Positions 11,511 through 44,791 of a stretch of DNA of 63,177 nucleotides are shown one piece after another. The position numbers were made by a program, and so were the translations under genes. Under the pieces are notes generated by a model that searched no databases, was not told where the DNA came from, and saw only the letters and a list, made by a program, of their open reading frames with translations. Within the stretch, counting starts at the first letter, position 1. Each line of letters opens with the position of its first letter. This DNA comes from Candidatus Omnitrophota bacterium (lineage in GTDB: Bacteria > Omnitrophota > Gorgyraeia > B26-G9): the NCBI GenBank assembly GCA_043806135.1, contig JAZDHG010000073.1, forward strand, positions 1 to 63,177. Reading direction: 5' to 3'.

Positions 11511-11538
11511 GATCAATCCAAGATTACGGGTTAATCTC

Positions 11539-11576
11539 AAGGGGCGGAAAAGTTATTTTCTGCCCCTTGTTTTTTC
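11539..11576 (+). terminator. Rho-independent terminator after gap
   Basis: The stem aaggggc / gcccctt (11539-11545 and 11562-11568) is followed by gtttttt. Confidence 0.7.
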
Positions 11577-11655: not shown

Positions 11656-11684
11656 TTGACAATAGTTACCATATATGCTATCAT
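11656..11684 (+). promoter_or_regulatory. Sigma70-like promoter upstream of the HTH/secretin operon
   Basis: TTGACA (11656-11661), a 17-nt spacer, then TATCAT (11679-11684). Confidence 0.45.
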
Positions 11685-11811: not shown

Positions 11812-12051
11812 ATGGATGATATTATTACAGCAATGGACGTTGTAAGGAAATTTAATATATCTTACCAGACATTAAATCATTATACAAATTTCGGATTGCT
11901 TGATGCTATAAGGAAAAGAGGCTCCGGCAATAAGCGTTTTTATAAAACTTTAGAGGTAGAAAGCAACTTAAATAAAATAGATGATCTAAAGGGTAAAGGA
12001 TATCCTTTAAAGATAATAGCTAAGATATTGAATAATACTCCTCAGATGTAA
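11812..12051 (+). CDS. MerR/excisionase-type helix-turn-helix DNA-binding protein
   Basis: The N-terminal TAMDVVRKFNISYQTLNHYTNFGLL resembles a MerR-type HTH. 79 aa. Confidence 0.6.
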   Translation: MDDIITAMDVVRKFNISYQTLNHYTNFGLLDAIRKRGSGNKRFYKTLEVESNLNKIDDLKGKGYPLKIIAKILNNTPQM

Positions 12052-12120
12052 GCTGTCTTTCAGGGAAGGATAGACTGAAAAATGGATTTTATGGATAGGA
12101 AATCATATAGAATTATATGT

Positions 12121-12167
12121 AAAGGCTATACTTTTTTTATAAAAAAGAGTATGGCCTTTTATTTTTT
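12121..12167 (+). terminator. Terminator-like or attenuator hairpin immediately before the ExeA-like gene
   Basis: aaaggctatactttttt pairs with aaaaagagtatggcctttt (about 17 bp, one mismatch and one bulge) and is followed by a T-run. It ends ~20 nt before the RBS and ATG at 12188. Confidence 0.5.
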
Positions 12168-12187
12168 AAAGAGCTTGGGAGTGGATC

Positions 12188-13048
12188 ATGAGTTATTTTA
12201 AAATATTAGGGTTTGACAAAGAGCCTTTTTCCACAAGCCCTGATCCGGCCTTTTTCTTTGAGTCACGTGAACATGAAAAAGCACTCACAAACCTGATGAT
12301 AGAGCTGAGGTTAAAAAGAGGGCTGAACGTGATTTTGGGGGATGTCGGAACAGGAAAGACAACCTTGAGCCGAAAACTGTACCAGCTTGTTAAATCTCAG
12401 GACATGTTTTTATGCCATATGATGCTTGATCCTGCATATGAGAGCGATGAGATATTCCTAACGTCAATTGTGCGCAACTTTGATGTTCAGGTGAATAACA
12501 ATGGTCCGCGCATACTGGAGCTTAAAGAAGCTTTGGAGCGCTTTCTGTTTCAAAAGGGCGTTGAGGAAAATAAAACAGTTGTTTTGATCATTGATGAGGC
12601 TCAGAAGCTGAACGAGGTGACTCTCGAATGTCTGAGGGTGATGCTTAATTATGAGACAAATGAGTTTAAGCTGCTGCAGCTGGTACTGTTAGGGCAAATG
12701 GAGCTGCACGGTAAGGTGATCGATATACCGAATTTTGTAGATAGAATTAATTTTAAGTATACGCTTAATCCTCTTGATGAAGAAGAGACAAGTCAGATGA
12801 TTGATTTCCGTATTAAACAGGCAGGATATAAAGCGAATATGCATTTGTTTTTAGAAGGAGCGATAAACGAAATTTACAGGTATACGCATGGATACCCCAG
12901 AAGAGTTAATATGATTTGCCATAAGGCTCTTAAGCGCCTGGTAATGAATAATAAATTTGTCGTAGATGAAGTTATGATCCGTGAAATCATCAATGAAGAG
13001 GTAAAGCAAGGCTGGCATCAGTCGCCGCATCCTACAATTATAAAGTAA
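12188..13048 (+). CDS. ExeA/MshM-like AAA+ ATPase (secretin assembly type, AAA_22)
   Basis: Walker A GDVGTGKTT and Walker B VLIIDEAQ are present. The length and layout match GspA/ExeA/MshM N-domains. Confidence 0.8.
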   Translation: MSYFKILGFDKEPFSTSPDPAFFFESREHEKALTNLMIELRLKRGLNVILGDVGTGKTTLSRKLYQLVKSQDMFLCHMMLDPAYESDEIFLTSIVRNFDVQVNNNGPRILELKEALERFLFQKGVEENKTVVLIIDEAQKLNEVTLECLRVMLNYETNEFKLLQLVLLGQMELHGKVIDIPNFVDRINFKYTLNPLDEEETSQMIDFRIKQAGYKANMHLFLEGAINEIYRYTHGYPRRVNMICHKALKRLVMNNKFVVDEVMIREIINEEVKQGWHQSPHPTIIK

Positions 13049-13054
13049 TAGACT

Positions 13055-13738
13055 ATGGCAGAAAAAAATATTAGTCCTGAAAAAAAGTTGCTGAATATTA
13101 TTGAAGGCGAAGGGAATGAATCGCAGGATGTTAATTCTACGCCGGCAAGCCTGGGGAAAAAATTTTTCTCTATCGCAGCCCTTAGAGGAAGGATCTCGTT
13201 TTTAAAGGCAAAAGCATTGCAAGGTCCGGTAAGGACACCGCGTATTTCTTTTAGTTTTGCCGGATTTAATGTTCTGATGCAGTTATGCATTGTAGGGTTG
13301 GTGATTTACCTTGGCATGAGCATAAGAGTGGAGTTTTCGCGGCTTCTTAACCGTGACTGGAAAGAACAATCAGACAAAGAACCATTGATCGCAGCAGATG
13401 TAAAGGCGGTTGCTTCTTTATTACAGTCTGAGAGTTATTATTTAAATAAGGTTAAAGCCAGAAACCTGTTTGGATTTGCAGATGAGCCGGAAGAAGAAAA
13501 AATTGCTTTTAAAGAACCGGCGAAGCAAGAGCCGACTGAACTGGAAAAAATGGTAAAGAGTTTAAAGCTGGTAGGCATTTCCTGGTCAAATGACCCTGAT
13601 GCTATAATTGAAGATGAAAACGCGAAAAAGACATATTTTGTTAAAACAGGACACAAAATAAACGAGATAAGCGTGCAGGCAATTTACAGAGATAAAGTAA
13701 TTTTACATTATCTTTCTCAAGAGGTTGAATTGAGATGA
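13055..13738 (+). CDS. Bitopic membrane protein, possible ExeB/GspB/GspC-HR-like secretin partner
   Basis: It has a single TM (FNVLMQLCIVGLVIYLGMSI) and a C-terminal beta-rich domain (LKLVGISWSNDPDAIIED..YFVKTGHKI). Its position between the ExeA-like gene and a secretin, and its stop overlapping the secretin ATG, support the call. Confidence 0.4.
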   Translation: MAEKNISPEKKLLNIIEGEGNESQDVNSTPASLGKKFFSIAALRGRISFLKAKALQGPVRTPRISFSFAGFNVLMQLCIVGLVIYLGMSIRVEFSRLLNRDWKEQSDKEPLIAADVKAVASLLQSESYYLNKVKARNLFGFADEPEEEKIAFKEPAKQEPTELEKMVKSLKLVGISWSNDPDAIIEDENAKKTYFVKTGHKINEISVQAIYRDKVILHYLSQEVELR

Positions 13739-15516
13739 GAAGAATTTTTGCGTTTACAATAATATCGTTTAGCCTGATAATTGTTGTATTGACCTCTCAG
13801 GCAGCGGAACTGGCGCAGGCAATTGTTCCCGTGCCGCCAGTCCATCAGCAGGAGCTTACTCCATTATCCGGAGGTATAGAGGGGAATATATCGCTTGACT
13901 TGAGAAATATTGATATAAATGATGCTCTGAAATATTTCGCATTGAAAAGCGGACTGAACATCGTAACCACCAAATCGGTCACAGGCAGGGTAACGCTTGT
14001 AGTAGTGGAAGTCAGGGTTAAGGATGTATTTGATATTATGCTGCGTTCCAACGGATTGGCTTATGACAGATCGGGAAATATATATAATGTAATGAGTGAA
14101 GAAGAATATATGATCATTTACGGGAAAAAGTTTTCTGATATACGGCAGGTCAAGGTTTTTCGGCTGCAATATGCGATTCCCGAGAAGGTCTTCAGTTTCT
14201 TAGATACACTAAAAAGCTCAATAGGAAGGATTTTGGTTGACCAGGAATCAGGTACTGTTCTTTGCATGGACTCTCCCGAAAAACTGGCTGAGATGGAAAA
14301 GGCTCTGGAGAGCTTTGAACAGGAGAGTCTTATCAAGGTTTTCCCTTTAAATTATGCAAAAGCAAAAGATATTGAAGAACATCTCAAAGCGCGATTGGAC
14401 GACAAAAAAGTAGGATCTATAAAAGCGGATGAGCGTGCTAATCAGGTAGTAGTCCAAGCGCTGCCAATGAGAATGGAGGAGATCGAGAAACTGATCAAGA
14501 TTTTAGATAAGAAAACACTGGAAGTGCTTCTAGACGCAAAAATTGTAAAAGTCAGTTTAGGTAACGCGTCAAATGCCGGTGTTAGATGGGAGGGTCTTTT
14601 TGACCTTGCCGAGTCCAGCAATGGGGGGATGACTTATATCGGCTCAACACCCTTTTCTACGGTAGGATCGTCCTCGGATGATTGGCAATCACGAAAGTCC
14701 ACTCTTCAAGAAGTAGGATATGTAGGGTCTTATCCCGCCAGCGGGACCACATCCAACTATGCGGCGAGTAACCCGGCAATTGGTTTGGAAAACCTTAATA
14801 TCGGAGTTATTGGCGCAAACGATTTTAACGTAGTGCTGAATTACTTAACGACAGAAAATGAAGCTAAGATTCTTTCCAATCCGAAAATAGCGGTTGTTAA
14901 TAACACGGAAGCCCGCATACACGTTGGAGCACGTGAAGCATATGTTACGACTACAACAACTACCGGACAATCGACAAGCACAATATCAGAGCAGGTCAAC
15001 TTTATTGATATCGGCTTGCAGATGGATGTTATCCCGACAATAAATGAGGACGGTTTTGTCAGCTTAAAACTGAAAGCTGAGGTCAGCAGTGTAATAAGTA
15101 CATTAATTACACCTTCAAATAACAGGATACCTATTGTTGATACTTCTGTGGCTGAAACCACGGTTTTAGTGAAAGAAGGCGCAACAATAGTCATCGGAGG
15201 CTTGCGCAGGGAAGAAAAGACAAAAATTGAAAAAAGAGTTCCTATCTTAAGTAAAATACCCGGACTTGGGCAATTATTCAAAACTAAAAATGAAACTGAC
15301 AATGTTACGGAACTATTGATAATGCTGACGCCTACAATCATCAGCGGAGAGGCGCTTATCAGCGAACAGGGCAGAGAGATCGGTGTTCATAACATAAAGC
15401 CTGCGCAGGATTACGAAGCAAGTATAGAGAAAAAGGAAAGGCTAAAAGTGCTGACTCCTGCTGAGCCGGAATTCGGGGGTATGGTAATTAAAGGGTTTAG
15501 ACCGTATAATAACTAG
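13735..15516 (+). CDS. Secretin (GspD/PilQ/MshL superfamily), paralog 1
   Basis: It has a signal peptide, an N0-like domain (LDLRNIDINDALKYFALKSGLNIV) and a secretin core (ILSNPKIAVVNNTEARIHVG .. VPILSKIPGLGQLFK). Confidence 0.9.
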   Translation: MRRIFAFTIISFSLIIVVLTSQAAELAQAIVPVPPVHQQELTPLSGGIEGNISLDLRNIDINDALKYFALKSGLNIVTTKSVTGRVTLVVVEVRVKDVFDIMLRSNGLAYDRSGNIYNVMSEEEYMIIYGKKFSDIRQVKVFRLQYAIPEKVFSFLDTLKSSIGRILVDQESGTVLCMDSPEKLAEMEKALESFEQESLIKVFPLNYAKAKDIEEHLKARLDDKKVGSIKADERANQVVVQALPMRMEEIEKLIKILDKKTLEVLLDAKIVKVSLGNASNAGVRWEGLFDLAESSNGGMTYIGSTPFSTVGSSSDDWQSRKSTLQEVGYVGSYPASGTTSNYAASNPAIGLENLNIGVIGANDFNVVLNYLTTENEAKILSNPKIAVVNNTEARIHVGAREAYVTTTTTTGQSTSTISEQVNFIDIGLQMDVIPTINEDGFVSLKLKAEVSSVISTLITPSNNRIPIVDTSVAETTVLVKEGATIVIGGLRREEKTKIEKRVPILSKIPGLGQLFKTKNETDNVTELLIMLTPTIISGEALISEQGREIGVHNIKPAQDYEASIEKKERLKVLTPAEPEFGGMVIKGFRPYNN

Positions 15517-15540
15517 GTACGGGTGTTTAAAATACGATAT

Positions 15541-18500
15541 ATGAAAAATATTATGAAAATAAAAAAGAATATTATAATTTTTATCTTGTTAATATTGACG
15601 GTATTGTCTGTCAATATTTATGCTCAGGAAAAAGCCGAAGTTCCTGCTTCAGGACAGGCTGTTGTCATAGAGCAGAAGAATGAAGCGCTTTCTTCCGGAG
15701 AGGCTGACCGCGAGAAGAATGCGGAAGAACTTTCTTCAGAACAAGTGGCGATTCTCATGGAGCAGATAAACGATAATATGAATACTTTGAATGTAGAACT
15801 GGACCTGAACAGACAGGCATATGATTACCTGCTTAAAGAGTACGATGAGCTTAAAAATAAACACAAAAAAACAGAAAAGGATATAGAGCAGTTAAAATTC
15901 AAAAATGAAAAAGCGGTTGAGGACAGTAAAAATGACCAGGCGAAACTCCAGGATAGTAAAAAAGAACTGAACGAGAAAGAGCGGCAGATAAAAATACTGC
16001 GCGGCGATATAAAAGATCAATTGCTTGAGCTTGAAAAAATAAAAAAGGAAAAAGAAGCTGTTTTGACAGAAAAGGATAGTTATGCGCTTAAATTCAGCGA
16101 AATTGAAGAGAAACATAAAACAAAAGAAGGTCAAAACAAGTCTTTGCAGCAAAGTTTAACGGAAGCCGAAGAGGCAATCAAAAAGCTTGAAGCGGAAAAG
16201 GAAACGGCTTTAAAAGAAAAGCACAGTTATGCGCTTAAACTCGGCGAAAGCGAGGAAAAGCTTAAGATAAAAGAAGGAGAAATTAAATCCATCCATTTGG
16301 GGATCGCAGATGTAAATAAATCGCTGGAAGAAAAATTAGCGGCGGCTCAAGAGGAAATTAAAAAAATTAAAACGGAAAAAGAAACGATTTTAACTGAAAG
16401 ACAGGATTATGCGCTTAGGCTGGGTGAAAAAGACGCGAAGCTTCAGGCCAGAGGGGAGCAGATTGAATTCCTGCAGGAGGAGATTAAAAAACAGGGCAAA
16501 CCTTTTGAGGAGGAGTTAGCTGCAGTACAGGAAAAGGCCAAGAAACTGGAAGATGAAAAACTGGCGTTGTTGAAAGAAAAACAGGAGTATGAAATTCAGC
16601 TTAAAAAGAGCGTTGCAAAATTTGAGGAAGGAGAAATCCAGCTGCAAATAAAAGAAAAACAGCTAAGGTCTCTGCAGGCTGAATTTGCCGGAAAAGAACA
16701 GGCGCTGGCGGTAGCGCTTGTCTTAGCAGAAGAAAAGGTTAAAAATCTGGCAGCAGAGAAGCAGGAGACCTTAAAAGAAAATAAAAATTACGCGCTTAAA
16801 CTAGAAGAAATAGAAGCAAAACTTAAGGAAAAAGAAATAAAGATCGCTTCTTTTGATGCAAGGTTAAAGGACAGGGAGCAGTCGTTCAATGAAGAGATCG
16901 TGGCTGCAAATGATAAGGTTAAAAAACTGGAAGAGGAAAAAGAGACGCTGATAAAAGAAAATCAGGATTATTCGTTTAAGATAAAAACAAACCTTGCGCA
17001 GCTTAAAGCAAGTGAGGTGCAGTTAAAGGCCAGAGAAGATCAGATCACGGCCTTGCAAAAAGGTATAGAAGGTCAGGGCAGTATCCTTAAAAGTGAGCTT
17101 GTAGAGGCGCAGGATTCTATCAATGAGATCAAGAAAGAAAACAAAATATTAACAAAGGAGAATGAATCTTTCGGGAAAAAGATTAAGGCATATGAACAGC
17201 AGATAGCAGTAAAGGAAGAAGAGATAAAGGTTCTAAGTGCCAGTGCCGAAGGCCAGGATACGACACTGAGAAATGATCTGGCTGGAGCTGAAAAAACCAT
17301 AGCCGGCCTCAAGAAGCAAGCTGAGGATATACAGGCAAAAACAGAAGAAGACAAAAACCAGATGCGCAAGCTTAAAGATATGATCGCGCAAAAGGATGAA
17401 GCAATACAGCAGGAGGGAAAGATCTTTCAGCAGAAACAGGATATTTTAACTAAACAAATTGATGTGGTACAAAAGAGTTTAGAAGAAACAAAAGTGAATT
17501 TAAATGCGCAAATAGAATCTGAAAAGCAAGACAATGAATTGCTTAAGTCACAGAATAGTAAACTGGAAAATGAAAAAAAACAGCTTGCAGCCAGAATTAT
17601 GGGGCTTCAGGAAAATCAAAACATGCACGGGCAGCTTTTTGAGGTTAATCAGCAGAACATGAAGGTTGCCAAAGAGGAAATGGATTTTCTTAAAAATGAG
17701 TTAAATAAAAGGGAAGAACTTTTTAAAATAAGCAAGGAAGAATTAGCAAAACATAAATCCGACACATATCAGCTGCTTGATGAAAAAGAAAAATTACAGA
17801 ACGAGCTTCAGGAAATACGCAGGCAGGCAACAGATACAGTAAAAGAGCTTAAGCTGGCAAAAGAACTCTTGAGAGAAAAAGATCAAGATTATACCGCAAG
17901 GATTGAAAACAACAGCAAAGAGCTCAATAATCAGTTGCGTGAATTTCAGGATTTGGCCAAAGAGTTGAAAAAGGAGAACTCACTTATAAATAAGGATAAA
18001 GAGGTATATCTGGCGCAGATAGATAATCTTAAAAACATATCCGTTGAGTTGGAAAAAAAATTAACAGATATGAAAGAGCAGAAAAATGCTCTGGCAAAAG
18101 AGATGCAAGGTGTTTCTAAGCGTGAAACAAAAAGTAAAGAAAAAGGCAAAGAGCAGGAAAAATTGCTAACCTCGTACTCTGAGCATATCGATAAGCTGAC
18201 GGTGAAAATCGCGGATCTTGAAGAAAAGAACAGAAGTATGAACTTTCTTTTAAAAACTATGCCGGAAAAATTAAGCCGGCTTGAAAAAGAGTTATCGGAA
18301 CTACGGACCCAAAATGCAAGTTTGCATTATAACCTTGGAGTATTTCATACTCAAAGGCAGGAATACACTCAGGCGATTATGGAATTTGAGCAGGCTTTGA
18401 AATTTAATTACGAAGATGCCAATACGCATTATAACCTAGGGATTATTTATTCACGCTATATAATTGATGAGTTAAAAGCTATTTCGCATTTTAAGCATTA

Positions 18501-18585: not shown

Positions 18586-18587
18586 CA

Positions 18588-20381: not shown

Positions 20382-20382
20382 T

Positions 20383-21354: not shown

Positions 21355-21390
21355 AAAGGTTTTTAAAAATTTTAAATATAAGGAGGCGCA

Positions 21391-22041
21391 ATGGACAGAT
21401 TTATCAGGAGTTTGTGGATACTTTTAATTTTGGCTATGGTTTTTATACAGGACGGATATGCGTTTTGGGGAAGAAAAAAGACAGAAGAACCTACCACTAA
21501 AGCTCAGCAAAAACAAGGGGAAAAAACTGAGGCAGTTAAAGAGAAGGCAGTAGAAAAAGAAGTTAAGAAAGAAATAAAACAAGAAGCAACGCAAGAGGAG
21601 CAAAAAAAATCTCCGGCAAAAGAAGCTGATGGGAAAAAAGAAACAAGCGAAGATAGACAGAAAAAGATAGAAGAAGATAAGATGTTGCGTCAGGAAAAAC
21701 GCAAACAGCTAGACAATACTCAATGGGAGATTGAGATTAAGGCTATCGAGGGGAAAACAAAGGAGCAGACGGACATCCTTGTTTTTGAGGATAACCGTTT
21801 TTATTCCGACCGTTCTTCCAAGGAAGGGTTTAATGCTACAAATTATACTATTAGCATAAAGGACGAGGAAATAGTTATATGGGAAACAATGCAGACTGCT
21901 GAAGAGGGAAAAATCAATTTCTGGCGCGGTGAAATTTCCGATAAAATGACAAGCATGAGAGGGATAACGAGTAAAAAACTTCCTGATGGGACCTCAGTTA
22001 ATTATTCTTTTACCAGTACAAGCAAAAAAGCAATAAAATAG
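21391..22041 (+). CDS. Secreted K/E-rich protein with a globular C-terminal domain (hypothetical)
   Basis: It has a signal-like N-terminus, an ~80-aa K/E/Q-rich linker and a ~110-aa C-terminal domain. No family recognised. Confidence 0.55.
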   Translation: MDRFIRSLWILLILAMVFIQDGYAFWGRKKTEEPTTKAQQKQGEKTEAVKEKAVEKEVKKEIKQEATQEEQKKSPAKEADGKKETSEDRQKKIEEDKMLRQEKRKQLDNTQWEIEIKAIEGKTKEQTDILVFEDNRFYSDRSSKEGFNATNYTISIKDEEIVIWETMQTAEEGKINFWRGEISDKMTSMRGITSKKLPDGTSVNYSFTSTSKKAIK

Positions 22042-22083
22042 AACGGATTGATTCTATACTATGCCGCGGGGAAAGAGGGGAAA

Positions 22084-23217
22084 ATGTTAAAGATTTCCGA
22101 CATTTTAAAAAAAACCAAAAAAAAAGGAGAGGATAAATCATCTCACTCAGCGAAAAAAACAGCTGCCAGGGAAGTTCAGGAAGCAAGTGTGCAAGCAAAT
22201 AAAAACGCCGAGGAAATAAGAAAGGAAGATCTTGTCAAACCGCAGGATAAAGGGAAGTCCCCCCCCTCTATTTCAACTGTTACGGCAATACAATTTAAAA
22301 ATTCTGATAATAAGGAAGCAGTAAATGTTTATAAAGAAGCGATTTCCCTGTCTGAACAGATGGGCGGACTTTCGTCACAAAACTGGGAATCATTTTATAA
22401 AAGTGCAAAAAGAATAATTGATATATTTATTAATATTTTAGGAAGCGATGAAAATGCGCTTTTAAGACTCTTTTTTAGCGACTATTACTCTTCCCAGGGA
22501 TACCTGTACCAGCATTCTGTAAACACATGCATTTTATCTTTGTATATATCCATATCCATCAAGTACAGCCGTGAACAGCTGCATCAAGTTGGGTTGGCTG
22601 CCTTGCTTCATGATATTGGTCTCATTCAATATGATAATTTGATTAGTCAGAATAAACGTTTTGGTAAAAATGAGTATAATGAGATAAGGCAGCATCCGAT
22701 CGCGGGAAGGAAAATCATTGAAAATATCAGCAGCAATATGGACATTGAGATCCTTGAGGTTATATCACAGGAGCATGAACGTCTTGACGGCAGCGGATAT
22801 CCGCATGCTTTAAAAGAAGAAGAAATAAGTGAGAAGGCAAGACTTATAGGACTGGTTGATTCTTATGAATCAATGATGCACATAAGGCCCTATCGTGATA
22901 AGTTCAAAAGCGAAGAGGTGATTAAATTTTTAACACAGCAGAAAGTCAGGTTTGAGTATAAATTCATAAAGGCATTGATAGACCTGATAGGGGTTTTCCC
23001 TATTATGACATCTGTAAAATTAAATACGAGAGAAACCGGCGTGGTTATTAAACAAAACTTTCAAATGCCGCTTAAACCGGTTGTTAATATAACACACAGC
23101 GCTCAAGGTCAAAAAACAGACACGCCTAAGGCCATTGATCTTGCCTCAAATTTTTCGATTTATATTCAGGAAGGCTTTATAAGTCATAAAACAAAAGACG
23201 AGAAAAACAGTGAATAG
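22084..23217 (+). CDS. HD-GYP domain phosphohydrolase (predicted c-di-GMP phosphodiesterase)
   Basis: ALLHDIGL and HERLDGSGYP motifs are present. I prefer the ATG at 22084. Confidence 0.85.
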   Translation: MLKISDILKKTKKKGEDKSSHSAKKTAAREVQEASVQANKNAEEIRKEDLVKPQDKGKSPPSISTVTAIQFKNSDNKEAVNVYKEAISLSEQMGGLSSQNWESFYKSAKRIIDIFINILGSDENALLRLFFSDYYSSQGYLYQHSVNTCILSLYISISIKYSREQLHQVGLAALLHDIGLIQYDNLISQNKRFGKNEYNEIRQHPIAGRKIIENISSNMDIEILEVISQEHERLDGSGYPHALKEEEISEKARLIGLVDSYESMMHIRPYRDKFKSEEVIKFLTQQKVRFEYKFIKALIDLIGVFPIMTSVKLNTRETGVVIKQNFQMPLKPVVNITHSAQGQKTDTPKAIDLASNFSIYIQEGFISHKTKDEKNSE

Positions 23218-24922
23218 ATTCAGCACTATAATAAAAATTATTATATTTCTTTTTCTGGTCGGTGGGTCTGCTTACGCTATTAATCGGCTGGATTTCTTTA
23301 AAAAACAAACAAGTGCTCTTAAAGTCCAGACAACGGAGTTGATCAAGGCAACTGAATATTTAGAGCAAAGTCTTGATGAAGAAAAAAAGGAAAATGCTGC
23401 CAGGGGCGCAAAAGTTAATATTCTTTTGAAGGAACTGGCAGGTTTGCAGGATACTAAAAGAATAAAGGAAGAATTTGCCGAGAGCCAGGAAAAATTACGA
23501 CTTTTAAATAACGATCACTCTGTAGCTAAACAAGAGAACTTAAAGCTTAATCAAATAAATTTATCACTGAATCACAGATTGACAAAACTTACTAATGAGT
23601 TTACGAAAACACTTGAAGACGTAAGCAGGCTTCAGGCACAGGTTAATGAATCGAAAGACGACAAATTTGTTCGCAAATTTGTGCTGCAGCTTGAAAAAAC
23701 AGAAGCAGTATTGCAAAAGCGCGAAGAAGAACTTGAAGTTTTAAAGGGAAAAAATAAAACTCTATCTTTAGAAAACGCAGGCTTCAATAAAGAAAAAAAA
23801 ATGCTTGAACAAAATGTCATGCGTTTGGAAAAAGAAAACAGTAAAATGGAGACGCTAGTTAATAAAATCAGAGATGATTTTAATGAGCAGCAGCGCATGC
23901 AGGCAAAATTAAAGGAAGAGGACAGTAACTTAACGGCAAAGCTTAGAGAAAACGAAATAGAAAGAAATAAGCTTGATCAGCAGATAGGTACTCTGAGCAC
24001 TCAAAAGGAAACTTTTGCAGGAAAGTTAGAATTGCAGAACAAAAAGATTGCAGAGCTGGAGAATGAGCTGCTTGATATTGATAAAAAAGCAAGGCAGATC
24101 AGAAAAATAGAACAGGCAAGGGATGATTTGGCCCTTGAGCTAAAACTGGCACAGGAAAAGGTTAAAGATCAGGAGCAGATAATAGCCAGATTGGAAGCCG
24201 CGCAAAAGGGAATAAGCGTTAATGAGATCCCGCTGGCTAAATCAGCAGTAACTACGGAAATTGAAGGAGATTTAAGCAAGGCATATGCCTTGTATGATAC
24301 AGCAAAAGCGCAAGTGGTAAAATTTTCTGAGATGCTTATGAGCAAAGAAGTTGAAATTGAGACCTCAAAGAAGAGAATAGCTGAACTTGAAGAGGGCTTG
24401 AAGATGCTTCGCTTACAGCCCGAAGCATCAGGTGATAAAAAATATGCAATGCTCTACGATAGAATAAAAATGCTCAACGATTCGCTTTTAGCGAAAGATG
24501 AACTGCTGCAGGAAAAAGAAGCAGAAGTTTCTGCGCTAAAACAGGCGAAGGATACTGTTGAGCAAAGACTTGAGTACCAGGAAAAAGAATATAAAAATGC
24601 TAACATGCTTTACTCGAATCTTAAAGGCCAGCTTTTACAGTCAACAGAGCTTTTGGCGCGCAGAGAGAGCGAAGTAATTGAAAAGAATAAAGAGGTGCTG
24701 AATTTGAAAAGTGAACTTATTCTTGTCCAGGCTGAATATAAGATAAAGGAACAGGAACTGAAGGATTTGAGAATGCAGCAGAACAAAACACTGGAAGATC
24801 TGTCTAGAATTACTAATTTAAATATTAGTTTACAGCAAAATCCCGGGGATTCCTTTTCTCAAGATGAGAGGCAGAATGCGGATAAGCTGAAAAAAGAGTT
24901 AGAAGTGTTATTGGGTAAATAA
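23210..24922 (+). CDS. Membrane-anchored coiled-coil protein (570 aa)
   Basis: The GTG start overlaps the HD-GYP stop. It has an N-terminal TM (IIKIIIFLFLVGGSAYA) and the remainder is heptad-like E/K/L/Q sequence. Confidence 0.7.
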   Translation: MNRFSTIIKIIIFLFLVGGSAYAINRLDFFKKQTSALKVQTTELIKATEYLEQSLDEEKKENAARGAKVNILLKELAGLQDTKRIKEEFAESQEKLRLLNNDHSVAKQENLKLNQINLSLNHRLTKLTNEFTKTLEDVSRLQAQVNESKDDKFVRKFVLQLEKTEAVLQKREEELEVLKGKNKTLSLENAGFNKEKKMLEQNVMRLEKENSKMETLVNKIRDDFNEQQRMQAKLKEEDSNLTAKLRENEIERNKLDQQIGTLSTQKETFAGKLELQNKKIAELENELLDIDKKARQIRKIEQARDDLALELKLAQEKVKDQEQIIARLEAAQKGISVNEIPLAKSAVTTEIEGDLSKAYALYDTAKAQVVKFSEMLMSKEVEIETSKKRIAELEEGLKMLRLQPEASGDKKYAMLYDRIKMLNDSLLAKDELLQEKEAEVSALKQAKDTVEQRLEYQEKEYKNANMLYSNLKGQLLQSTELLARRESEVIEKNKEVLNLKSELILVQAEYKIKEQELKDLRMQQNKTLEDLSRITNLNISLQQNPGDSFSQDERQNADKLKKELEVLLGK

Positions 24923-24944
24923 TTTGTCGGGAGGATAGCATCCA

Positions 24945-27281
24945 ATGTTTAAAAATATTAATAAATGCAGAGGCCTTATTATAGTAGGGATTACCATGAT
25001 CGCCGGTTTCCTTTTTCAAGGCAATGTCAGCGCTCTTGATTATCAGGATTATTTTAAGAAGGGGGAAATGCTTTATGAACAAGGTGAATACGATAAGGCA
25101 CAAGTTGAATTTGAAAAAGCCAGAGACGCTTTGAAGCAGCCGGGAAGTTTTATCCGTACAGAAAAACAGAGTGAAAAGGCAGCGCAAGAATTGAAGGGGC
25201 TGCACGATGAAAATAGAAATCTCGCAAAGGAGATAGAAAAATTAAAAACGGAAAAGGTATTGGTTGAAAAAGACCTGGAAAATACAAGCAGGAAGCTGAA
25301 ACAAAAAAATCAGCCTACAGCCGGTTTAACAGATATGATTAAAAAGCTTGAAAATGCTGTACTAGAACGAGAAAATCAGCTTAGAACTGTTCAGGAATAT
25401 GTAGGGAAAGTAAACCAAGAAAAGGGTAATTTATCAATGGAGATAGCTGCTTTAAAAGAAGAGCTAATAAAACTATATCAGAGAAAGGACGGACCCGAAA
25501 CACCGAAAACCGACAACCAGTTTGTAGAAAATAAAATTTCAAAATTCAAAAATTTGTTTGGTTCTAAAGATACAGTTGGAGAAAAGCCGGGTTTGTCTAT
25601 AAGGGATAAACTTGAGCACTATGAGCTGTTAAAAGAAGAGAATAAGAACTTAAATAATATCCTTATAAGTCAAAAGCAGGAAAGAGATGAATTGGATTCA
25701 AAGAATAAAGATCTTTTAAATGAACTTGAATTATCTCGAAATTCTATTATGCAAAAGGAAAGAGACAAAGAAGTTATTTTGCTGGATGTAGTTTTGCTTG
25801 AGAAAATAAACAGTTCTTTGTCACAGCAAAAGAACAAGCTTGAGTATGCAAAGCCTGATGTAATGGCAAAAGCACAAAAGGACAGAAACAGTGGTGTGCT
25901 TAAACAGAAAGAAGCGGAGATTGAAGAATTAAAAGTACAAATCAAAAAAGCCGATAAAGAATACATGTCTCTTGAAAAGGGAAACAAGGAATTGACTAAA
26001 AAGGCTGATTTTGCTGCTGAGTTGGAAAAAGAAAATGAGAAACTTGAAGATCAGAAGAAAAATATTGAAAAGCAGAAAAAGGATTTAGAAGAAGAAGTCA
26101 AAACAAAAGACAAGATGATCAGTGATTTTCAAAGCCAGCAAAAAAAGGCTGAAAGTGACCTGGCCAGGGCGCAGGCAGAGGCAAAGCAGAGCACAGAAGC
26201 GAACAAAGAGCTGGCAGCATTAAATAAAGAACTGGAGAAGAATAAAGCTCAGCAGCCTAAGAGCCAGGGCATGATCAGCAAGCTGGAGAGTGAGATAGCT
26301 TTATTTGAGGCCCAGATGAAGGATAGAGATAAGCAGGAGAACAGTTTAGAGGCCAAGATAAATGAATATGCGCGGGATATAAAGAATAAAGATGAACTGA
26401 TAAGTGCACTTGAAGCAGAAAAAATAAAAATTAAAGATGAGCTTGTGAAGAATAAGCTTAGCAAGGAAACAGGAGCTGAATTAAAAACAAAAATAGATGA
26501 TCTTGAAATCAAGCTCAAGCAAAAAGAAGAAAATGCCGCTGCATTGACTGATGAGACAGAAGAGGTCAAGAGAGAGAGAAACTCTGCGTCATTGGAGCTG
26601 GTACAGGTACGCAAAGAATTGAAACAGCTTCAAGAACAGCAGGAAAAGGAAAAAACGTCGAAAAAAGACGGGCAGGTAAACAGCCGCTATGAAGCGATTA
26701 AAAAAGAAAATGATGGTCTGAAGGCAGAACTGACTTTTGTAAAAAACGACCTGGAAAAAATAAGTGAAAATAATAAATTGTTAAAACAGGAGAACGCCGG
26801 CTTTCAGAATGAAGTTAAAGCCCTGATGCAAAGCACTGGCGAAGTTAAGAGAGTCGATGAAAAGCTGAAAATGCTTGAGAAGGATATCGCTAATAAGGAA
26901 TTACAGCAGCAGGAATTGCGACAACAGCTTGTTTTAGCAGATGCGCAAAGACAGTCAATTGCTTTAGAGCTGGCAAGTGTGCAAAATAAATATGCGGCTT
27001 TACAGGATGAGGTAGTCGCTCAGGCAGATGTGCCAGGAGATCTATTAGAACAAATCAAGACGGCTCAGGATCAAAAGCTGAGTCTTCAGGAGAAGCTGAA
27101 ACAGGCAGTTGAAGAACTAAAAAGCAGAAGCGAAAAGGGGCTTGCTTTATTGAAAGAGGTTAAAAAACTTGATGCAGATCTGGCTAAAAGCGAAGAAGAA
27201 AAAGTTGTAATGGCTGAAGAAATAGTAGCCTTGAGAGAAGAAAAAGCCAGATTAGAGGAGAAAATAGCGCAATTACAGTGA
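24945..27281 (+). CDS. Signal-anchored coiled-coil protein (778 aa) with one N-terminal TPR-like unit
   Basis: An N-terminal hydrophobic segment is followed by YFKKGEMLYEQGEYDKAQVEFEKA (the same motif as in the Wza-like protein) and ~700 aa of coiled coil. Confidence 0.75.
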   Translation: MFKNINKCRGLIIVGITMIAGFLFQGNVSALDYQDYFKKGEMLYEQGEYDKAQVEFEKARDALKQPGSFIRTEKQSEKAAQELKGLHDENRNLAKEIEKLKTEKVLVEKDLENTSRKLKQKNQPTAGLTDMIKKLENAVLERENQLRTVQEYVGKVNQEKGNLSMEIAALKEELIKLYQRKDGPETPKTDNQFVENKISKFKNLFGSKDTVGEKPGLSIRDKLEHYELLKEENKNLNNILISQKQERDELDSKNKDLLNELELSRNSIMQKERDKEVILLDVVLLEKINSSLSQQKNKLEYAKPDVMAKAQKDRNSGVLKQKEAEIEELKVQIKKADKEYMSLEKGNKELTKKADFAAELEKENEKLEDQKKNIEKQKKDLEEEVKTKDKMISDFQSQQKKAESDLARAQAEAKQSTEANKELAALNKELEKNKAQQPKSQGMISKLESEIALFEAQMKDRDKQENSLEAKINEYARDIKNKDELISALEAEKIKIKDELVKNKLSKETGAELKTKIDDLEIKLKQKEENAAALTDETEEVKRERNSASLELVQVRKELKQLQEQQEKEKTSKKDGQVNSRYEAIKKENDGLKAELTFVKNDLEKISENNKLLKQENAGFQNEVKALMQSTGEVKRVDEKLKMLEKDIANKELQQQELRQQLVLADAQRQSIALELASVQNKYAALQDEVVAQADVPGDLLEQIKTAQDQKLSLQEKLKQAVEELKSRSEKGLALLKEVKKLDADLAKSEEEKVVMAEEIVALREEKARLEEKIAQLQ

Positions 27282-27315
27282 TTCTTTCCTTACTAATTAC
27301 AAGGATAAACAATAA

Positions 27316-28353
27316 ATGCTGATTTTAAGAAAACGGATATTGATTACCTGTGTTCTTGCTGTGGTTTCTTTGTTCCTGGTGAGGCCTGTTTTTGTTTATG
27401 CCCAAACAGCACTTGAGAAGTCAGAAAGATATTATCAAAAAGGATTGGAGTTTTATGAAAAAGGCAATTTTAAAGCAGCTGAAGCAGAGTTTAAAAAAGC
27501 AATTTTAGCCAGTTCGCAGGCCAAGGAGCAGTATTATAAGAGCGGGCTTAAGCTTTATGAGCAGGGAAAGTATAAAGAGGCAAGGGTTGAATTTCAGAAG
27601 GCAATTGAAGCGACAAAAAAAGAGAACGATCAGCATTATAAAAAGGGATTGATCCTTTATAATCAGGGGAGATATAAAGAGGCAGAACAGGAATTCCAAA
27701 AGGCGATCTCTACAATAAAGGAAGATAAAAAGGTTGAGCAATTTGTTGAAAGTGAATCTGAACATGGCAGAAAAACTCTGGAATATATTATTGGTAACGG
27801 AGATATGCTTCTTATAAAGGTGTGGCAGAATTCTGATCTTGATGATGAGGTTATTGTGCGCCCGGACGGGAGAATTTCTTTTACCTTGGTCGGCGATGTT
27901 ATGGCAACAGGATTAACTATTAGTGAATTCCGAGTTGATTTAACTGCTAAGCTGCAGGAATTTATCCGCAATCCGCAGGTTTCAGTTTCCATAAAATCAA
28001 TTGGCGGTGAAAAGGTTATTGTTTTGGGCCAGGTGAAAAATCCGGGAGTTTACCAGTTGACAGGAACCAGAACTATTTTGGAAGCTGTAAGTTTAGCCGG
28101 AGGTTTTACGGAACATGCGGTTGAAGACAGCGTGATGCTTATTGAAGGGGGGTTTGAAAAACCTACTCCTAAACGGTTAGACCTGACCAAGGCACTGAAA
28201 CGTGCAGACATAAGCGATAACGTGGTTTTAAAAACGGATGATATGATTTATGTGCCGCGTAAATTCATAAAAGATGTAAATTATTTTTTACAGCAATTCT
28301 TGGATCCGGTTTCACGCGGATTATTTATAAGAAGAGAGCTTAGAGATTTCTGA
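27316..28353 (+). CDS. Wza-like polysaccharide export outer-membrane protein with three N-terminal 34-aa TPR-like repeats
   Basis: A Poly_export motif (YIIGNGDMLLIKVWQNSDL..VRPDGRISFTLVGDVMATGLT) and an SLBB-like region (VIVLGQVKNPGVYQL) are present. Confidence 0.85.
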   Translation: MLILRKRILITCVLAVVSLFLVRPVFVYAQTALEKSERYYQKGLEFYEKGNFKAAEAEFKKAILASSQAKEQYYKSGLKLYEQGKYKEARVEFQKAIEATKKENDQHYKKGLILYNQGRYKEAEQEFQKAISTIKEDKKVEQFVESESEHGRKTLEYIIGNGDMLLIKVWQNSDLDDEVIVRPDGRISFTLVGDVMATGLTISEFRVDLTAKLQEFIRNPQVSVSIKSIGGEKVIVLGQVKNPGVYQLTGTRTILEAVSLAGGFTEHAVEDSVMLIEGGFEKPTPKRLDLTKALKRADISDNVVLKTDDMIYVPRKFIKDVNYFLQQFLDPVSRGLFIRRELRDF

Positions 28354-44518: not shown

Positions 44519-44678
44519 CCTGTCCTTTATGGAATTTTTCATAAAAAATTAATTGTAATGCGTTTAAAAAATAATGCCCCGTGGTGCCCTGCACCAGAAA
44601 GGCCTGAATTGCTGCGCAATTAAGAAATAAGCAGGCCTTACGGTACATGGTTAAAATAATTGGCAACATTTATCCCGT

Positions 44679-44765
44679 ATCGTGTTTGCCATAGGCAAAC
44701 TCTGATTCGGGACGCTTGATTGTTTACCACTGAATCGTGATTTTGCAAAGCAAAATCTCTGGTTC
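44679..44765. repeat. Two REP-like palindromic units downstream of the RAYT gene
   Basis: The units are atcgtg-gtttgcc-ata-ggcaaac-tctgattc (44679-44708) and atcgtg-gattttgc-aaa-gcaaaatc-tctggttc (44734-44765). The flanks are the same, while the stems differ but remain complementary. Confidence 0.65.
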
Positions 44766-44791
44766 AGAGCTGGATCTGTTATTATTGTTAA

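What the first reader, a model, noticed from the sequence alone, without database searches (positions are those of the whole stretch)
11812..28353. Orphan two-secretin operon with an ExeA/ExeB-like pair, four long coiled-coil proteins, HD-GYP and a Wza-like exporter, but no pilus or T2SS motor
Seen: about 12 co-directional genes with overlapping or nearly abutting stops and starts (13735/13738, 18585/18588, 20381/20383, 23210/23217). They encode a MerR-like HTH, an ExeA/MshM-type AAA+ ATPase, a bitopic 227-aa protein and two secretins. Also present are signal-anchored coiled-coil proteins of about 1014, 323, 570 and 778 aa, a K/E-rich secreted protein, an HD-GYP protein and a Wza-like protein. 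No prepilin-type protein, GspE/PilB/PilT ATPase, GspF/PilC platform or prepilin peptidase is present anywhere in the 63 kb. Known: ExeAB assembles the ExeD secretin. MSHA loci combine MshL (secretin), MshM (ExeA-like) and MshN (TPR). TPR lipoproteins (PilF/PilW/Tgl) act as secretin pilotins. Inference: this is a secretin-based envelope machine whose accessory parts are long fibrous proteins. An uninterrupted ~900-aa coiled coil would exceed 100 nm, longer than a periplasm is wide. It may be under c-di-GMP control and coupled to polysaccharide export. I cannot match this gene set to a named system.
Basis: partly seen in the sequence, partly recalled or inferred. Interest (0 to 1): 0.8.

Follow-up and report, generated by a model that had tools for sequence, protein, structure and literature searches.

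The report
Conserved two-secretin envelope operon in Omnitrophota
This is a real 12-gene operon, conserved across the uncultivated phylum Omnitrophota, that pairs two outer-membrane secretin pores with their own helper proteins and a sugar-polymer export protein; it is separate from the ordinary type II secretion system of related genomes, and what passes through the pores is still unknown.

Summary

The block is a phylum-wide Omnitrophota module, not a chance fragment. In 77 related loci the HR-domain gene is followed by a secretin in 64 of 65 cases, and a secretin by a coiled-coil/TPR gene in 100 of 107.
- **Core:** a MshM/GspA-like P-loop ATPase, a bitopic GspC/GspB-type HR-domain protein, a PilQ-like secretin, a coiled-coil protein with a TPR cap, and a small exported beta-barrel protein.
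- **Window lineage:** the secretin/TPR pair is duplicated. HD-GYP, a coiled-coil protein and a Wza-like protein with no outer-membrane helix are added.

"Orphan" is only partly right. A related MAG with the same block also has a complete T2SS with its own GspD and GspC on another contig. In one lineage that T2SS lies directly upstream. Published KO tables list PilB, PilC and PilT but no PilQ in two Omnitrophota genomes.

My best reading is a self-contained secretin gate coupled to polysaccharide export (0.38). The close rival is the detached secretin module of type IVa pili (0.30). I rate it a new variant of a known kind.

The parts
11656..11684 (+). Best sigma-70-like promoter match, upstream of the first gene and downstream of the GAPDH terminator (11538-11569)
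   Evidence: 11 of 12 hexamer matches with a TG extension. The 14-bp-stem terminator ends the upstream gene. This is a consensus match only.
11812..12051 (+). 79-aa MerR_1-type HTH protein, the putative operon regulator
   Evidence: PF13411, E=2.5e-8. Homologous small MerR genes head the module in 31 loci. They also precede SecB in the L002-type loci and head one T2SS operon.
12121..12159 (+). 18-bp-stem AT-rich hairpin followed by a T-run, between the MerR gene and the ATPase gene; a possible attenuator or terminator
   Evidence: Rfam has no family here. Function not tested.
12188..13048 (+). Cytoplasmic P-loop ATPase (AAA_22) of the MshM/GspA-N/PEP-CTERM-ATPase type; belongs to the 'UP' paralogue clade
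   Evidence: AAA_22, E=1.6e-18; best hit TIGR03015, 188 bits (cutoff 324.5). No TM segment. It is 60-95% identical across loci, and Walker A and DEAQ are present in 68 of 68 members. An ATPase gene is followed directly by the HR gene in 51 of 71 cases.
13055..13738 (+). 227-aa bitopic inner-membrane protein: conserved cytoplasmic N-tail, one TM segment, and a periplasmic C-terminal HR domain (the GspC/GspB/PilP fold that binds secretin N0)
   Evidence: T2SSC, 30.7 bits (cutoff 27). GspC_delta, E=2.3e-7; the family profile hits PDB 3OSS chain C (GspC HR domain bound to GspD N0-N1), E=0.0045. TM at 68-90. N-terminal E9, L12, L13, I16 and E17 are nearly invariant; a secretin follows in 64 of 65 cases.
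13735..15516 (+). Secretin A (593 aa): N0/STN, two Secretin_N domains and a secretin domain; PilQ-like
   Evidence: TIGR02515 PilQ 250 bits, cutoff 284; GspD 238 bits, cutoff 351. It is 48% identical to secretin B and 62% to its L015 orthologue. It falls in a separate SecA clade.
15523..18585 (+). 1020-aa exported coiled-coil protein with seven ~60-aa repeats and a C-terminal TPR cap; partner of secretin A
   Evidence: Orthologues in this position range from 376 to 1300 aa.
18588..20381 (+). Secretin B (597 aa), a paralogue of A with a conserved aromatic C-terminal tail
   Evidence: (PilQ 268 bits, cutoff 284). The AF2 model (low confidence overall) matches the secretin fold: PulD 6HCG, E=2e-20.
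20383..21354 (+). 323-aa exported coiled-coil protein with a TPR cap; partner of secretin B; length-constrained
   Evidence: Its TPR cap is 43% identical to that of the 1020-aa protein (E=4e-27). Orthologues are 314-360 aa apart from one 471-aa outlier, median 325.
21391..22041 (+). 216-aa exported protein: signal peptide, disordered K/E-rich linker, helix, and a small 8-9-strand beta-barrel (WETMQ / FWRGE motifs)
   Evidence: AF2 gives pLDDT above 90 for most of residues 91-216. Foldseek finds only weak calycin-like matches, best E=0.02. The family occurs in 59 loci, often in several copies.
22048..23217 (+). Cytoplasmic HD-GYP-type protein with no receiver domain
   Evidence: HD_5, E=2e-25. 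HD at residue 188. The motif QEHERLDGSGYP at residue 241 has EHE where the canonical motif has HHE, and this holds across the family.
23210..24922 (+). 570-aa exported coiled-coil protein; its start overlaps the HD-GYP stop by 8 nt
   Evidence: It follows HD-GYP in 28 of 30 cases.
24945..27281 (+). 778-aa exported coiled-coil protein with one N-terminal TPR-like unit; found only in the window's own lineage
   Evidence: The family occurs in 7 loci.
27316..28353 (+). Exported OPX (Wza-like) protein: three TPR units, Poly_export and one SLBB domain; no Wza_C outer-membrane helix, so it is class 3
   Evidence: Poly_export 80 bits; no PF18412 hit; best hit TIGR03027, 131 bits (cutoff 180). It ends the block in 28 loci.

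Best explanation
This is a self-contained, Omnitrophota-specific secretin complex, not a T2SS fragment.

**Shown**
- A core of five genes is conserved across the phylum: P-loop ATPase, HR-domain inner-membrane protein, PilQ-like secretin, coiled-coil protein with a TPR cap, and a small exported beta-barrel protein.
- In the window's clade the secretin/TPR pair is duplicated into two ancient paralogous pairs.
- That clade also carries a second set of genes: HD-GYP, one or two coiled-coil proteins, and a class-3 OPX.

**Inferred mechanism**
1. The cytoplasmic ATPase binds the conserved N-terminal tail of the bitopic protein.
2. The periplasmic HR domain of that protein docks on the N0 domain of the secretins, as GspC does on GspD. 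This gives an ExeA/ExeB-like axis from cytoplasm to outer membrane that assembles or gates the pore.
3. Each secretin is held by its own TPR cap, as secretins are held by the TPR pilotins PilF, Tgl and TadD. The coiled-coil stalk acts as a periplasmic strut.
4. The OPX ring has no membrane-spanning helix. It hands a Wzx/Wzy-type polysaccharide to a secretin pore instead of to a beta-barrel porin.
5. The HD-GYP protein tunes output through c-di-GMP.

The short pair (secretin B and the 323-aa protein) looks ancestral. The long pair (secretin A and the 1020-aa protein) looks like the derived, polysaccharide-linked one.
For: - **Conservation.** 76 loci from species-representative genomes, nearly all labelled Omnitrophota, keep the gene order. 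The counts are HR gene followed by secretin 64/65, secretin followed by coiled-coil/TPR 100/107, HD-GYP followed by coiled coil 28/30, and coiled coil followed by OPX 26/31.
- **HR domain.** Pfam score above its cutoff, and a profile hit to the GspC HR domain of PDB 3OSS. The cytoplasmic tail is nearly invariant. The ATPase is unusually conserved, with intact Walker motifs.
- **Paired duplication.** SecA and SecB form separate clades, and the TPR caps are paralogous.
- **Independence from the T2SS.** The same MAG has a complete T2SS with its own GspD and its own GspC-like protein, and the focal secretins are only ~26% identical to that GspD.
- **No motor nearby.** No GspE/PilB/PilT-type Walker A motif lies within 10 kb (less where the contig ends) of the secretin in the 76 loci.
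- **Link to polysaccharide export.**
  - OPX and HD-GYP co-occur with the two-secretin form (19 of 21 loci, against 1 of 14).
  - The OPX has no Wza_C domain. Class-3 OPX proteins need an outer-membrane partner (bioRxiv 10.1101/2022.02.11.480155), and the operon has no beta-barrel porin.
  - Wzc-like and Wzy_C genes follow the OPX in L002 and L018.
  - The best NCBIfam hits of the ATPase and the OPX are both XrtA/PEP-CTERM exopolysaccharide-locus families.
- **Precedent.** Secretins are needed for slime secretion in cyanobacteria and myxobacteria (PMC12475490).
Against: - No secretin is known to work without a type IV filament, T3SS or phage assembly motor.
- The core module occurs without an OPX in the single-secretin lineages, so polysaccharide export cannot be its ancestral role.
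- Only L002/L003/L021 (one organism) and L018 carry Wzc/Wzy directly after the OPX. In the window the next gene is PGI.
- All physical contacts (ATPase to tail, HR to N0, TPR to secretin, OPX to secretin) are inferred. None was modelled.
- The HD-GYP protein has EHE where the canonical motif has HHE, so its activity is uncertain.
- The rest of the window's genome was not seen.
Confidence: 0.38

Rival explanations
1. It is the detached outer-membrane half of the type IVa (or MSHA-like) pilus machine. The two PilQ-like secretins, a PilP/GspC-like HR protein, a MshM-like ATPase and MshN/PilF-like TPR proteins would serve PilB/PilT/PilC/PilM and pilins encoded elsewhere. The OPX and HD-GYP genes would only be co-regulated with it, as pili and exopolysaccharide are co-regulated in Myxococcus (from my own knowledge, not checked).
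For: - The best NCBIfam hit of both secretins is PilQ (250 and 268 bits).
- PMC10066038 reports type IVa pili in nearly all Omnitrophota.
- Its KO table lists K02652, K02653, K02654, K02662 and K02669 for genomes 58 and 231. K02666 (PilQ) does not occur in the stored part of that table.
- Genome 231 also has K02450 (GspA) but no GspD KO.
- The T2SS and Tad systems have their own secretins, so by elimination the pilus needs one.
- MshL-MshM-MshN, PilQ-PilF and RcpA-TadD are precedents for pairing a secretin with an ATPase or a TPR protein.
Against: - No pil gene (PilM/N/O, PilB/T/C, pilin) lies next to the module in any of 77 loci, apart from the T2SS genes of one lineage.
- PilQ scores stay below the curated cutoff, and there is no AMIN domain.
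- The HR protein has its own TM segment and a conserved cytoplasmic tail paired with an ATPase. It is not a PilP-type lipoprotein paired with PilN/O.
- Two conserved secretin paralogues have no precedent in type IVa pili.
- I could not inspect any Omnitrophota type IVa pilus locus, and the KO table is truncated.
Confidence: 0.3
2. The secretins are alternative exit gates for the T2SS. The pseudopilus motor encoded elsewhere would push large exported proteins (the coiled-coil proteins, or the repeat-rich giant surface proteins found downstream in the single-secretin loci) through these extra secretins.
For: - In L031, L081 and L084-86 the order GspE-GspF-pseudopilins-GspK is followed within about 70-120 nt, in the same direction, by MerR-MerR and the module.
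- Small MerR-like genes head both the T2SS operon and the module.
- Single-secretin loci are followed by a SurA_N-like gene (weak Pfam hit) and by exported repeat proteins of more than 1000 aa.
- The T2SS GspE carries a c-di-GMP-binding MshEN domain.
Against: - The adjacency is seen in one lineage only (about 3 of ~76 species).
- The T2SS already has its own GspD and its own GspC-like protein.
- In L015/L082 the two loci lie on different contigs of 500 kb or more.
Confidence: 0.14
3. It is an ordinary T2SS or pilus fragment, or a chance juxtaposition of unrelated genes.
For: All the domain families are individually common.
Against: The gene order is conserved across some 76 species down to ~50% secretin identity, with overlapping stop and start codons. 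The true T2SS is a separate locus.
Confidence: 0.03

Closest known systems
GspA/GspB (ExeA/ExeB) secretin-assembly pair with GspD, in the Aeromonas/Vibrio T2SS
   Same: An AAA_22 P-loop ATPase gene sits immediately before the gene for a bitopic protein whose periplasmic domain targets the secretin. The secretin gene comes next.
   Different: The ATPase here is 286 aa and soluble. It has no TM segment and no peptidoglycan-binding domain. The partner matches the T2SSC/HR profile, and no T2SSB match appeared among the Pfam hits at E<=0.01. No GspC-to-GspM genes lie in the operon.
MSHA pilus genes MshL (secretin), MshM (ATPase), MshN (TPR)
   Same: The same trio of families occurs side by side, and MshM is likewise a short soluble AAA_22 protein (from my own knowledge).
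   Different: The MshL score is below its cutoff (166 and 189 bits, cutoff 250). The gene order differs. MshI/J/K/E/G and pilins are absent. The TPR proteins carry long coiled coils. There are two secretins.
Type IVa pilus PilQ with PilP and a TPR pilotin (PilF, PilW, Tgl), and RcpA-TadD
   Same: PilQ is the best secretin match. An HR-type N0 binder is present. Each secretin has one TPR partner.
   Different: There is no AMIN domain. The TPR partners are not lipoproteins and have 200-900-aa coiled-coil stalks. The HR protein is TM-anchored and paired with an ATPase. No pilMNO genes are present.
Class-3 OPX plus beta-barrel porin translocons (Myxococcus WzaX/S/B with WzpX/S/B)
   Same: The OPX has Poly_export and SLBB domains only, with no outer-membrane-spanning part, and is encoded beside an outer-membrane channel gene.
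   Different: The channel genes here are secretins, not PgaA-like 18-strand barrels. Wzc and Wzy are adjacent only in some lineages.
XrtA/PEP-CTERM exopolysaccharide loci (TIGR03015 ATPase, TIGR03027 exporter, PrsT TPR lipoprotein, PrsK/R two-component system)
   Same: These are the best NCBIfam hits for the ATPase and the OPX. TPR proteins are present here too, and a sensor kinase with a response regulator lies upstream in 29 related loci.
   Different: Both scores are below their cutoffs. No exosortase and no PEP-CTERM proteins were seen. Secretins are not part of XrtA loci.
Secretin 'slime nozzles' of cyanobacteria and myxobacteria (PMC12475490)
   Same: PilQ/GspD-family secretins are implicated in exopolymer secretion.
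   Different: Those secretins belong to canonical T2SS or pilus gene sets. No operonic OPX, ATPase, HR protein or coiled-coil/TPR partner was described there.

Membership tests
T2SS secretin GspD (TIGR02517) | Score at or above the equivalog cutoff (351.35 bits), with N0-N1-N2-N3 domains and the secretin domain | tested here: not met
   238 and 244 bits. In contrast, the secretin of the separate T2SS locus L082 scores 366 bits.
T2SS (whole system) | GspE ATPase, GspF platform, pseudopilins and GspL/M in the locus | tested here: not met
   None is present in the 63 kb window. They are present as a separate locus in a related MAG.
Type IVa pilus secretin PilQ (TIGR02515) | Score at or above the subfamily cutoff (284.35 bits) | tested here: not met
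   250 bits (A) and 268 bits (B). PilQ is the best hit but stays below the cutoff.
Type IVa pilus secretin PilQ (TIGR02515) | Linkage to pilMNOP, or use by a PilB/PilT-driven pilus | tested here: inconclusive
   No pil genes lie in 77 loci. PilB/C/T KOs exist in Omnitrophota genomes with no PilQ KO in the visible part of the table. I could not fetch any type IVa pilus locus.
MSHA MshL (TIGR02519) | Score at or above the equivalog cutoff (250.2 bits) | tested here: not met
   166 and 189 bits.
GspA/ExeA | Cytoplasmic AAA+ (AAA_22) domain with Walker A and B motifs | tested here: met
   AAA_22, E=1.6e-18. Walker A and DEAQ are present in 68 of 68 family members.
GspA/ExeA | A TM segment and a periplasmic peptidoglycan-binding domain | tested here: not met
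   The protein is 286 aa, has no hydrophobic segment and has no PG_binding hit.
GspC | HR domain that binds secretin N0 | tested here: met
   T2SSC, 30.7 bits (cutoff 27); profile hit to PDB 3OSS chain C, E=0.0045. Binding itself was not tested.
GspC | A C-terminal PDZ or coiled-coil domain after the HR domain, and an equivalog-level score | tested here: not met
   The protein ends about 5 residues after the HR domain. TIGR01713 scores 19.7 bits (cutoff 101.6) and GspC_delta 30.8 bits (cutoff 150).
OPX / Wza | Poly_export (PES) domain and SLBB domain | tested here: met
   Poly_export 80.2 bits; SLBB_2 40.6 bits.
OPX / Wza | Wza_C outer-membrane-spanning helix (class 1) | tested here: not met
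   One search gives no PF18412 hit. The 32-residue tail is broken by Pro331. The protein is therefore class 3 in the scheme of bioRxiv 10.1101/2022.02.11.480155.
XrtA/PEP-CTERM exopolysaccharide system | TIGR03015 ATPase and TIGR03027 exporter above their cutoffs, with an exosortase in the locus | tested here: not met
   188 bits (cutoff 324.5) and 131 bits (cutoff 180). No exosortase-like protein is in the window.
HD-GYP c-di-GMP phosphodiesterase | HD_5 domain with HD, HHE and GYP motifs | tested here: inconclusive
   HD_5 E=2e-25. HD (residue 188) and GYP are kept in 31-32 of 32 members, but HHE reads EHE across the family. Activity cannot be tested here.
TPR pilotin (PilF/PilW/Tgl/TadD) | A lipoprotein made of TPR repeats, encoded with or acting on a secretin | tested here: inconclusive
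   A TPR cap is present, and the gene follows the secretin in 100 of 107 cases. However, there is no lipobox, scores are far below cutoffs (PilW 28.5 bits, cutoff 154; Tgl 23.8 bits, cutoff 225), and most of the protein is coiled coil.

The most novel reading that the evidence does not exclude
The module is a motor-independent secretin machine: a new outer-membrane export route. A cytoplasmic MshM-like ATPase, acting through an HR-domain transmembrane protein, assembles or gates a secretin pore. A class-3 OPX ring and periplasmic coiled-coil/TPR struts feed exopolysaccharide through that pore. In the single-secretin lineages the cargo would be large surface proteins instead. No pseudopilus or pilus would be involved.
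Probability: 0.2. Interest if true: 0.85.

Novelty: new variant of a known kind. Interest (0 to 1): 0.6.

Why it matters
- **For secretin biology.** Secretins are known only as the outer gates of motor-driven machines (T2SS, type IV pili, Tad, T3SS, filamentous phage). This is a phylum-wide secretin operon with its own ATPase and HR-protein axis and one coiled-coil/TPR partner per secretin. In one large clade it also carries an OPX protein that lacks an outer-membrane domain.
  - If the pores export polysaccharide, that would be a new way across the outer membrane. It would also give a genetic basis to recent reports that secretins act as slime nozzles.
  - If the pores serve type IVa pili, it would show how Omnitrophota build the outer part of pili thought to mediate their attachment to host cells. 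These bacteria are ultra-small and proposed to be predatory or parasitic.
- **For annotation.** Five families currently labelled "hypothetical" get a defined context. The HR-protein family alone has 1580 clusters at 50% identity.

Tried and rejected
- **Metagenome scan.** I used L082 GspE to look for motor loci on the 1.62 Mb contig that carries the module.
- **Literature.**
  - Searches for Omnitrophota/Omnitrophica with 'secretin' found nothing relevant.
  - The supplements of PMC10066038 contain no pilQ or secretin terms, and the KO table is truncated.
  - The Velamenicoccus archaeovorus paper (PMC9004380) is not held.
- **West-Roberts et al. locus.** The T2SS-like locus upstream of giant genes (gspD/E/F, rcpC, Rotamase_2) is a different cluster.
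- **Rfam.** No riboswitch was found, c-di-GMP type included, anywhere in the window or upstream of the operon.
- **Tandem Repeats Finder.** It found no DNA-level repeats in the coiled-coil genes. The ~60-aa repeat is visible only at the protein level.
- **Beta-barrel protein.** Foldseek gave only weak calycin-like hits, best E=0.02, so no function can be assigned.
- **ATPase.** It has no PDB relative by sequence.
- **Secretin B model.** The AF2 model has low confidence (pLDDT 56.7). It confirms the secretin fold but cannot separate PilQ from GspD.
- **Accessory families.** The SurA_N-like protein, the two-component system, Wzc, Wzy, PilZ and the repeat-rich giant protein seen in related loci are all absent from the window.
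- **PEP-CTERM membership.** Rejected because both scores are below their cutoffs.

Full report
**1. The observation**

There are 4-nt and 8-nt overlaps at 13735/13738 and 23210/23217, and 1-2-nt gaps at 18585/18588 and 20381/20383.

Pfam and NCBIfam confirm every family named:
- MerR_1.
- An AAA_22 ATPase.
- A 227-aa protein with a T2SSC/HR domain.
- Two secretins (STN, 2x Secretin_N, Secretin).
- Two coiled-coil proteins that end in TPRs.
- A K/E-rich exported protein.
- An HD_5 (HD-GYP) protein.
- Two more coiled-coil proteins.
- A protein with TPR, Poly_export and SLBB domains.

The flanks are housekeeping genes: GAPDH upstream, ending in a strong terminator at 11538-11569, and PGI downstream. 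No other ORF of 100 aa or more in the window is a T2SSE, T2SSF, prepilin peptidase or N_methyl protein. A six-frame prepilin-motif scan is empty.

Heptad periodicity is two to three times more frequent in the four coiled-coil proteins than in the five non-coiled-coil proteins of the same operon.

Three details need correcting:
- The N-terminal hydrophobic cores are 13-17 residues long and are followed by AxA-like sites. They look like cleavable signal peptides rather than anchors.
- The 1020-aa protein contains seven ~60-aa repeats with regular Gly/Pro breaks. It is not a single 900-aa coil.
- The 227-aa protein carries the HR fold of GspC. Its family profile hits the GspC HR domain of PDB 3OSS, where that domain is bound to GspD N0-N1 (E=0.0045).

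**2. Source organism and conservation**

Secretin B has more than 1000 close homologues. All the named ones are Candidatus Omnitrophota. A scan of species-representative genomes gave 76 loci.

I mapped the window's proteins onto the ORFs of those loci. The order is highly conserved:
- HR gene followed by a secretin: 64 of 65.
- Secretin followed by a coiled-coil/TPR gene: 100 of 107.
- HD-GYP followed by a coiled-coil gene: 28 of 30.
- That coiled-coil gene followed by the OPX: 26 of 31.

Two forms exist.
- **Single-secretin form.** The order is MerR, ATPase, HR protein, secretin, a ~350-aa coiled-coil/TPR protein, then one or more copies of the small beta-barrel protein.
- **Two-secretin form, as in the window.** A second secretin/coiled-coil-TPR pair is present, followed by HD-GYP, one or two coiled-coil proteins and the OPX.

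An NJ tree separates a SecA clade, a SecB clade and a single-secretin clade.
- The partner of SecB is tightly length-constrained (28 of 29 orthologues are 314-360 aa, one is 471; median 325). It resembles the partner in single-secretin loci (median 347 aa).
- The partner of SecA varies from 376 to 1300 aa.
- So the SecB pair looks ancestral and the SecA pair derived.

OPX and HD-GYP track the two-secretin form. They are present in 19 of 21 two-secretin loci with enough flank, against 1 of 14 single-secretin loci.

**3. The components**

- **ATPase.**
  - It is soluble, with no hydrophobic segment.
  - It is 60-95% identical across loci whose secretins are only ~50% identical, and every one of 68 family members has Walker A and DEAQ.
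  - A second paralogue clade, ~30% identical, sits beside HD-GYP in other lineages. It is absent from the window.
  - The best NCBIfam hit is the XrtA/PEP-CTERM-locus ATPase, below its cutoff.
- **HR protein.**
  - It has one TM segment at residues 68-90.
  - Its cytoplasmic N-tail is nearly invariant (E9, L12, L13, I16, E17). I read that tail as the ATPase-binding site.
  - The family comprises 1580 clusters at 50% identity, and the members listed are almost all ~225 aa long. The only taxon named for the ten I looked up is Omnitrophota.
- **Secretins.** Both score best against PilQ, then GspD, then MshL, and all scores are below the cutoffs. A low-confidence AF2 model confirms the secretin fold. 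Secretin B has a conserved aromatic C-terminal tail (Y554, Y575, Y578, K592).
- **Small exported protein.** It has a disordered K/E linker and a confidently predicted 8-9-strand barrel. Structural matches are only weak and calycin-like. It has no Pfam family.
- **HD-GYP.** It keeps the HD and GYP motifs, but EHE replaces HHE across the whole family.
- **OPX.** It lacks the Wza_C domain. That makes it class 3, the class that needs a separate outer-membrane channel.

**4. Relation to motor-driven systems**

The gene just upstream of the module in locus L031 is GspK. Following it led to a complete T2SS:
- GspD, scoring 366 bits against a cutoff of 351.
- A GspC-like protein, GspM, and a PilM/GspL-like protein.
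- A ParA-like ATPase and a MerR-like protein.
- In the divergent operon, GspE with an MshEN domain, GspF, GspI, GspJ and GspK.

In MAG JAAEQR01 this T2SS lies on a 506 kb contig (L082), while the two-secretin block lies on a 708 kb contig (L015). The T2SS secretin is only ~26% identical to SecA and SecB. The focal secretins are therefore additional to a T2SS that already has its own GspD and GspC.

In one lineage (L031, L081, L084-86) the T2SS lies directly upstream of the module and in the same direction.

The literature adds three points:
- Type IVa pili are reported in nearly all Omnitrophota, and Tad systems have their own RcpA (PMC10066038).
- The KO table of that paper lists PilB, PilC, PilD, PilM and PilT for two genomes, and no PilQ KO in the stored part.
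- I found no paper describing this operon.

**5. How it most likely works**

What is shown: the composition, the conservation, the paired duplication, and the independence from the T2SS.

What is inferred:
1. The ATPase binds the HR protein's cytoplasmic tail.
2. The HR domain docks on secretin N0. Together these make an ExeA/ExeB-like axis that assembles or gates the pore.
3. Each TPR cap holds its own secretin as a pilotin would, perhaps through the conserved C-terminal tail.
4. The coiled-coil stalk acts as a periplasmic strut. The mature 323-aa protein has about 205 coiled-coil residues. That is roughly 30 nm if fully extended, comparable to a periplasm (my own arithmetic and general knowledge).

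The cargo is unresolved.
- **Polysaccharide export (confidence 0.38).**
  - Gene context favours this for the two-secretin form: an operonic class-3 OPX with no porin gene, HD-GYP, and Wzc/Wzy directly downstream in L002 and L018.
  - The best-hit families come from exopolysaccharide loci.
  - Secretin-dependent slime secretion is a published precedent (PMC12475490).
- **Type IVa pilus secretin module (confidence 0.30).**
  - For it: PilQ is the best match, pilus motors are reported almost everywhere in the phylum with no PilQ KO visible, and all known secretins work with a motor.
  - Against it: no pil gene lies next to the module in any of the 77 loci.
- **Alternative T2SS gates (confidence 0.14).** The adjacency in one lineage supports this reading.
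- **Ordinary fragment.** The synteny excludes this.

**6. Comparison and novelty**

The closest known arrangements are:
- GspA/GspB with GspD.
- MshL/MshM/MshN.
- PilQ with PilP and a TPR pilotin.
- Class-3 OPX with a beta-barrel porin.

Formal membership fails or is inconclusive for each (see the membership table). The combination has not been described, as far as I could find: a soluble ATPase, a TM-anchored HR protein, one or two PilQ-like secretins each with a coiled-coil/TPR partner, a small beta-barrel protein, and in one clade HD-GYP plus a class-3 OPX. I rate it a new variant of a known kind (secretin-based envelope systems). There is about a one-in-five chance that it is a motor-independent export route.

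**7. Limits**

- The rest of the window's genome was not available.
- No Omnitrophota type IVa pilus locus could be fetched.
- No multimer modelling was possible.
- Signal-peptide cleavage and coiled-coil oligomer state are heuristic inferences.
- The trees are NJ trees without support values.

Noticed in passing
window 44117-62004: A mobile defence island lies next to a tRNA gene (45067-45138). It holds an IS200-like Y1 transposase fragment, a large serine recombinase (45462-47120, minus strand) and a DUF2924 protein. It also holds a DrmD-like SNF2 helicase, two type III methyltransferases, a type III restriction enzyme with a TnsA-like C-terminus, and a PDC-S06/AAA_13 ATPase.
   Followed up: partly
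window 37730-37850: The RF2 gene (prfB) shows the classic programmed +1 frameshift site: AGGGGG, then TAT CTT TGA C. A short upstream ORF starts at 37730, and the main ORF was called from 37844.
   Followed up: partly
window 12121-12159: An 18-bp-stem AT-rich hairpin with a T-run lies between the MerR-like gene and the ATPase gene. It could be an attenuator or terminator that separates the regulator from the structural genes. No Rfam family matches.
   Followed up: partly
window 24945-25100 and 27400-27770: The 778-aa coiled-coil protein starts with one TPR-like unit (YQDYFKKGEMLYEQGEYDKAQVEFEKA). It closely resembles the three tandem units at the N-terminus of the OPX protein (YYxKGLxxYxxGxYKEAxxEFxKAI). 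This hints at a shared binding partner.
   Followed up: no
L002, L018, L019, L028, L029, L041, L042, L052, L053 and others, upstream of the module: A PAS-HisKA sensor kinase and a receiver-only response regulator lie directly upstream of the module in 29 and 27 loci respectively. They are sometimes in tandem arrays (four kinase and six regulator genes in L053). A small PilZ gene precedes the ATPase in L026, L030 and L037.
   Followed up: partly
L035, L041, L042, L052, L055, L058, L064, L067, L070, L077, L080, downstream of single-secretin modules: A recurrent downstream set follows the single-secretin modules. It comprises a 177-aa and a 149-aa exported protein with no family, a ~430-aa protein with a weak SurA_N-like hit, extra copies of the beta-barrel protein, and repeat-rich exported proteins of more than 1000 aa. 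At least some of those large ORFs run off the fetched flank (L035 does) and may be much larger.
   Followed up: partly
L040 and L020, L024, L026, L030, L043: A second AAA_22 ATPase paralogue, ~30% identical to the window's, forms a two-gene cassette with HD-GYP. The cassette is duplicated in tandem in L040.
   Followed up: partly
L082 4858-5817 and L081 4438-5407: The Omnitrophota T2SS operon starts with a 63-aa MerR-like gene and a ParA/MinD-like ATPase, ahead of the PilM/GspL-like gene. Its GspE carries an MshEN (c-di-GMP-binding) N-domain.
   Followed up: partly
window 30280-32025: A 581-aa ORF just downstream of PGI has no Pfam family and only a marginal nucleotidyltransferase hit.
   Followed up: no
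window 16001-18000: The coding strand of the coiled-coil genes shows extreme purine skew (AT skew 0.39, GC skew 0.27). This fits their Lys/Glu-rich composition and is not a replication signal.
   Followed up: no
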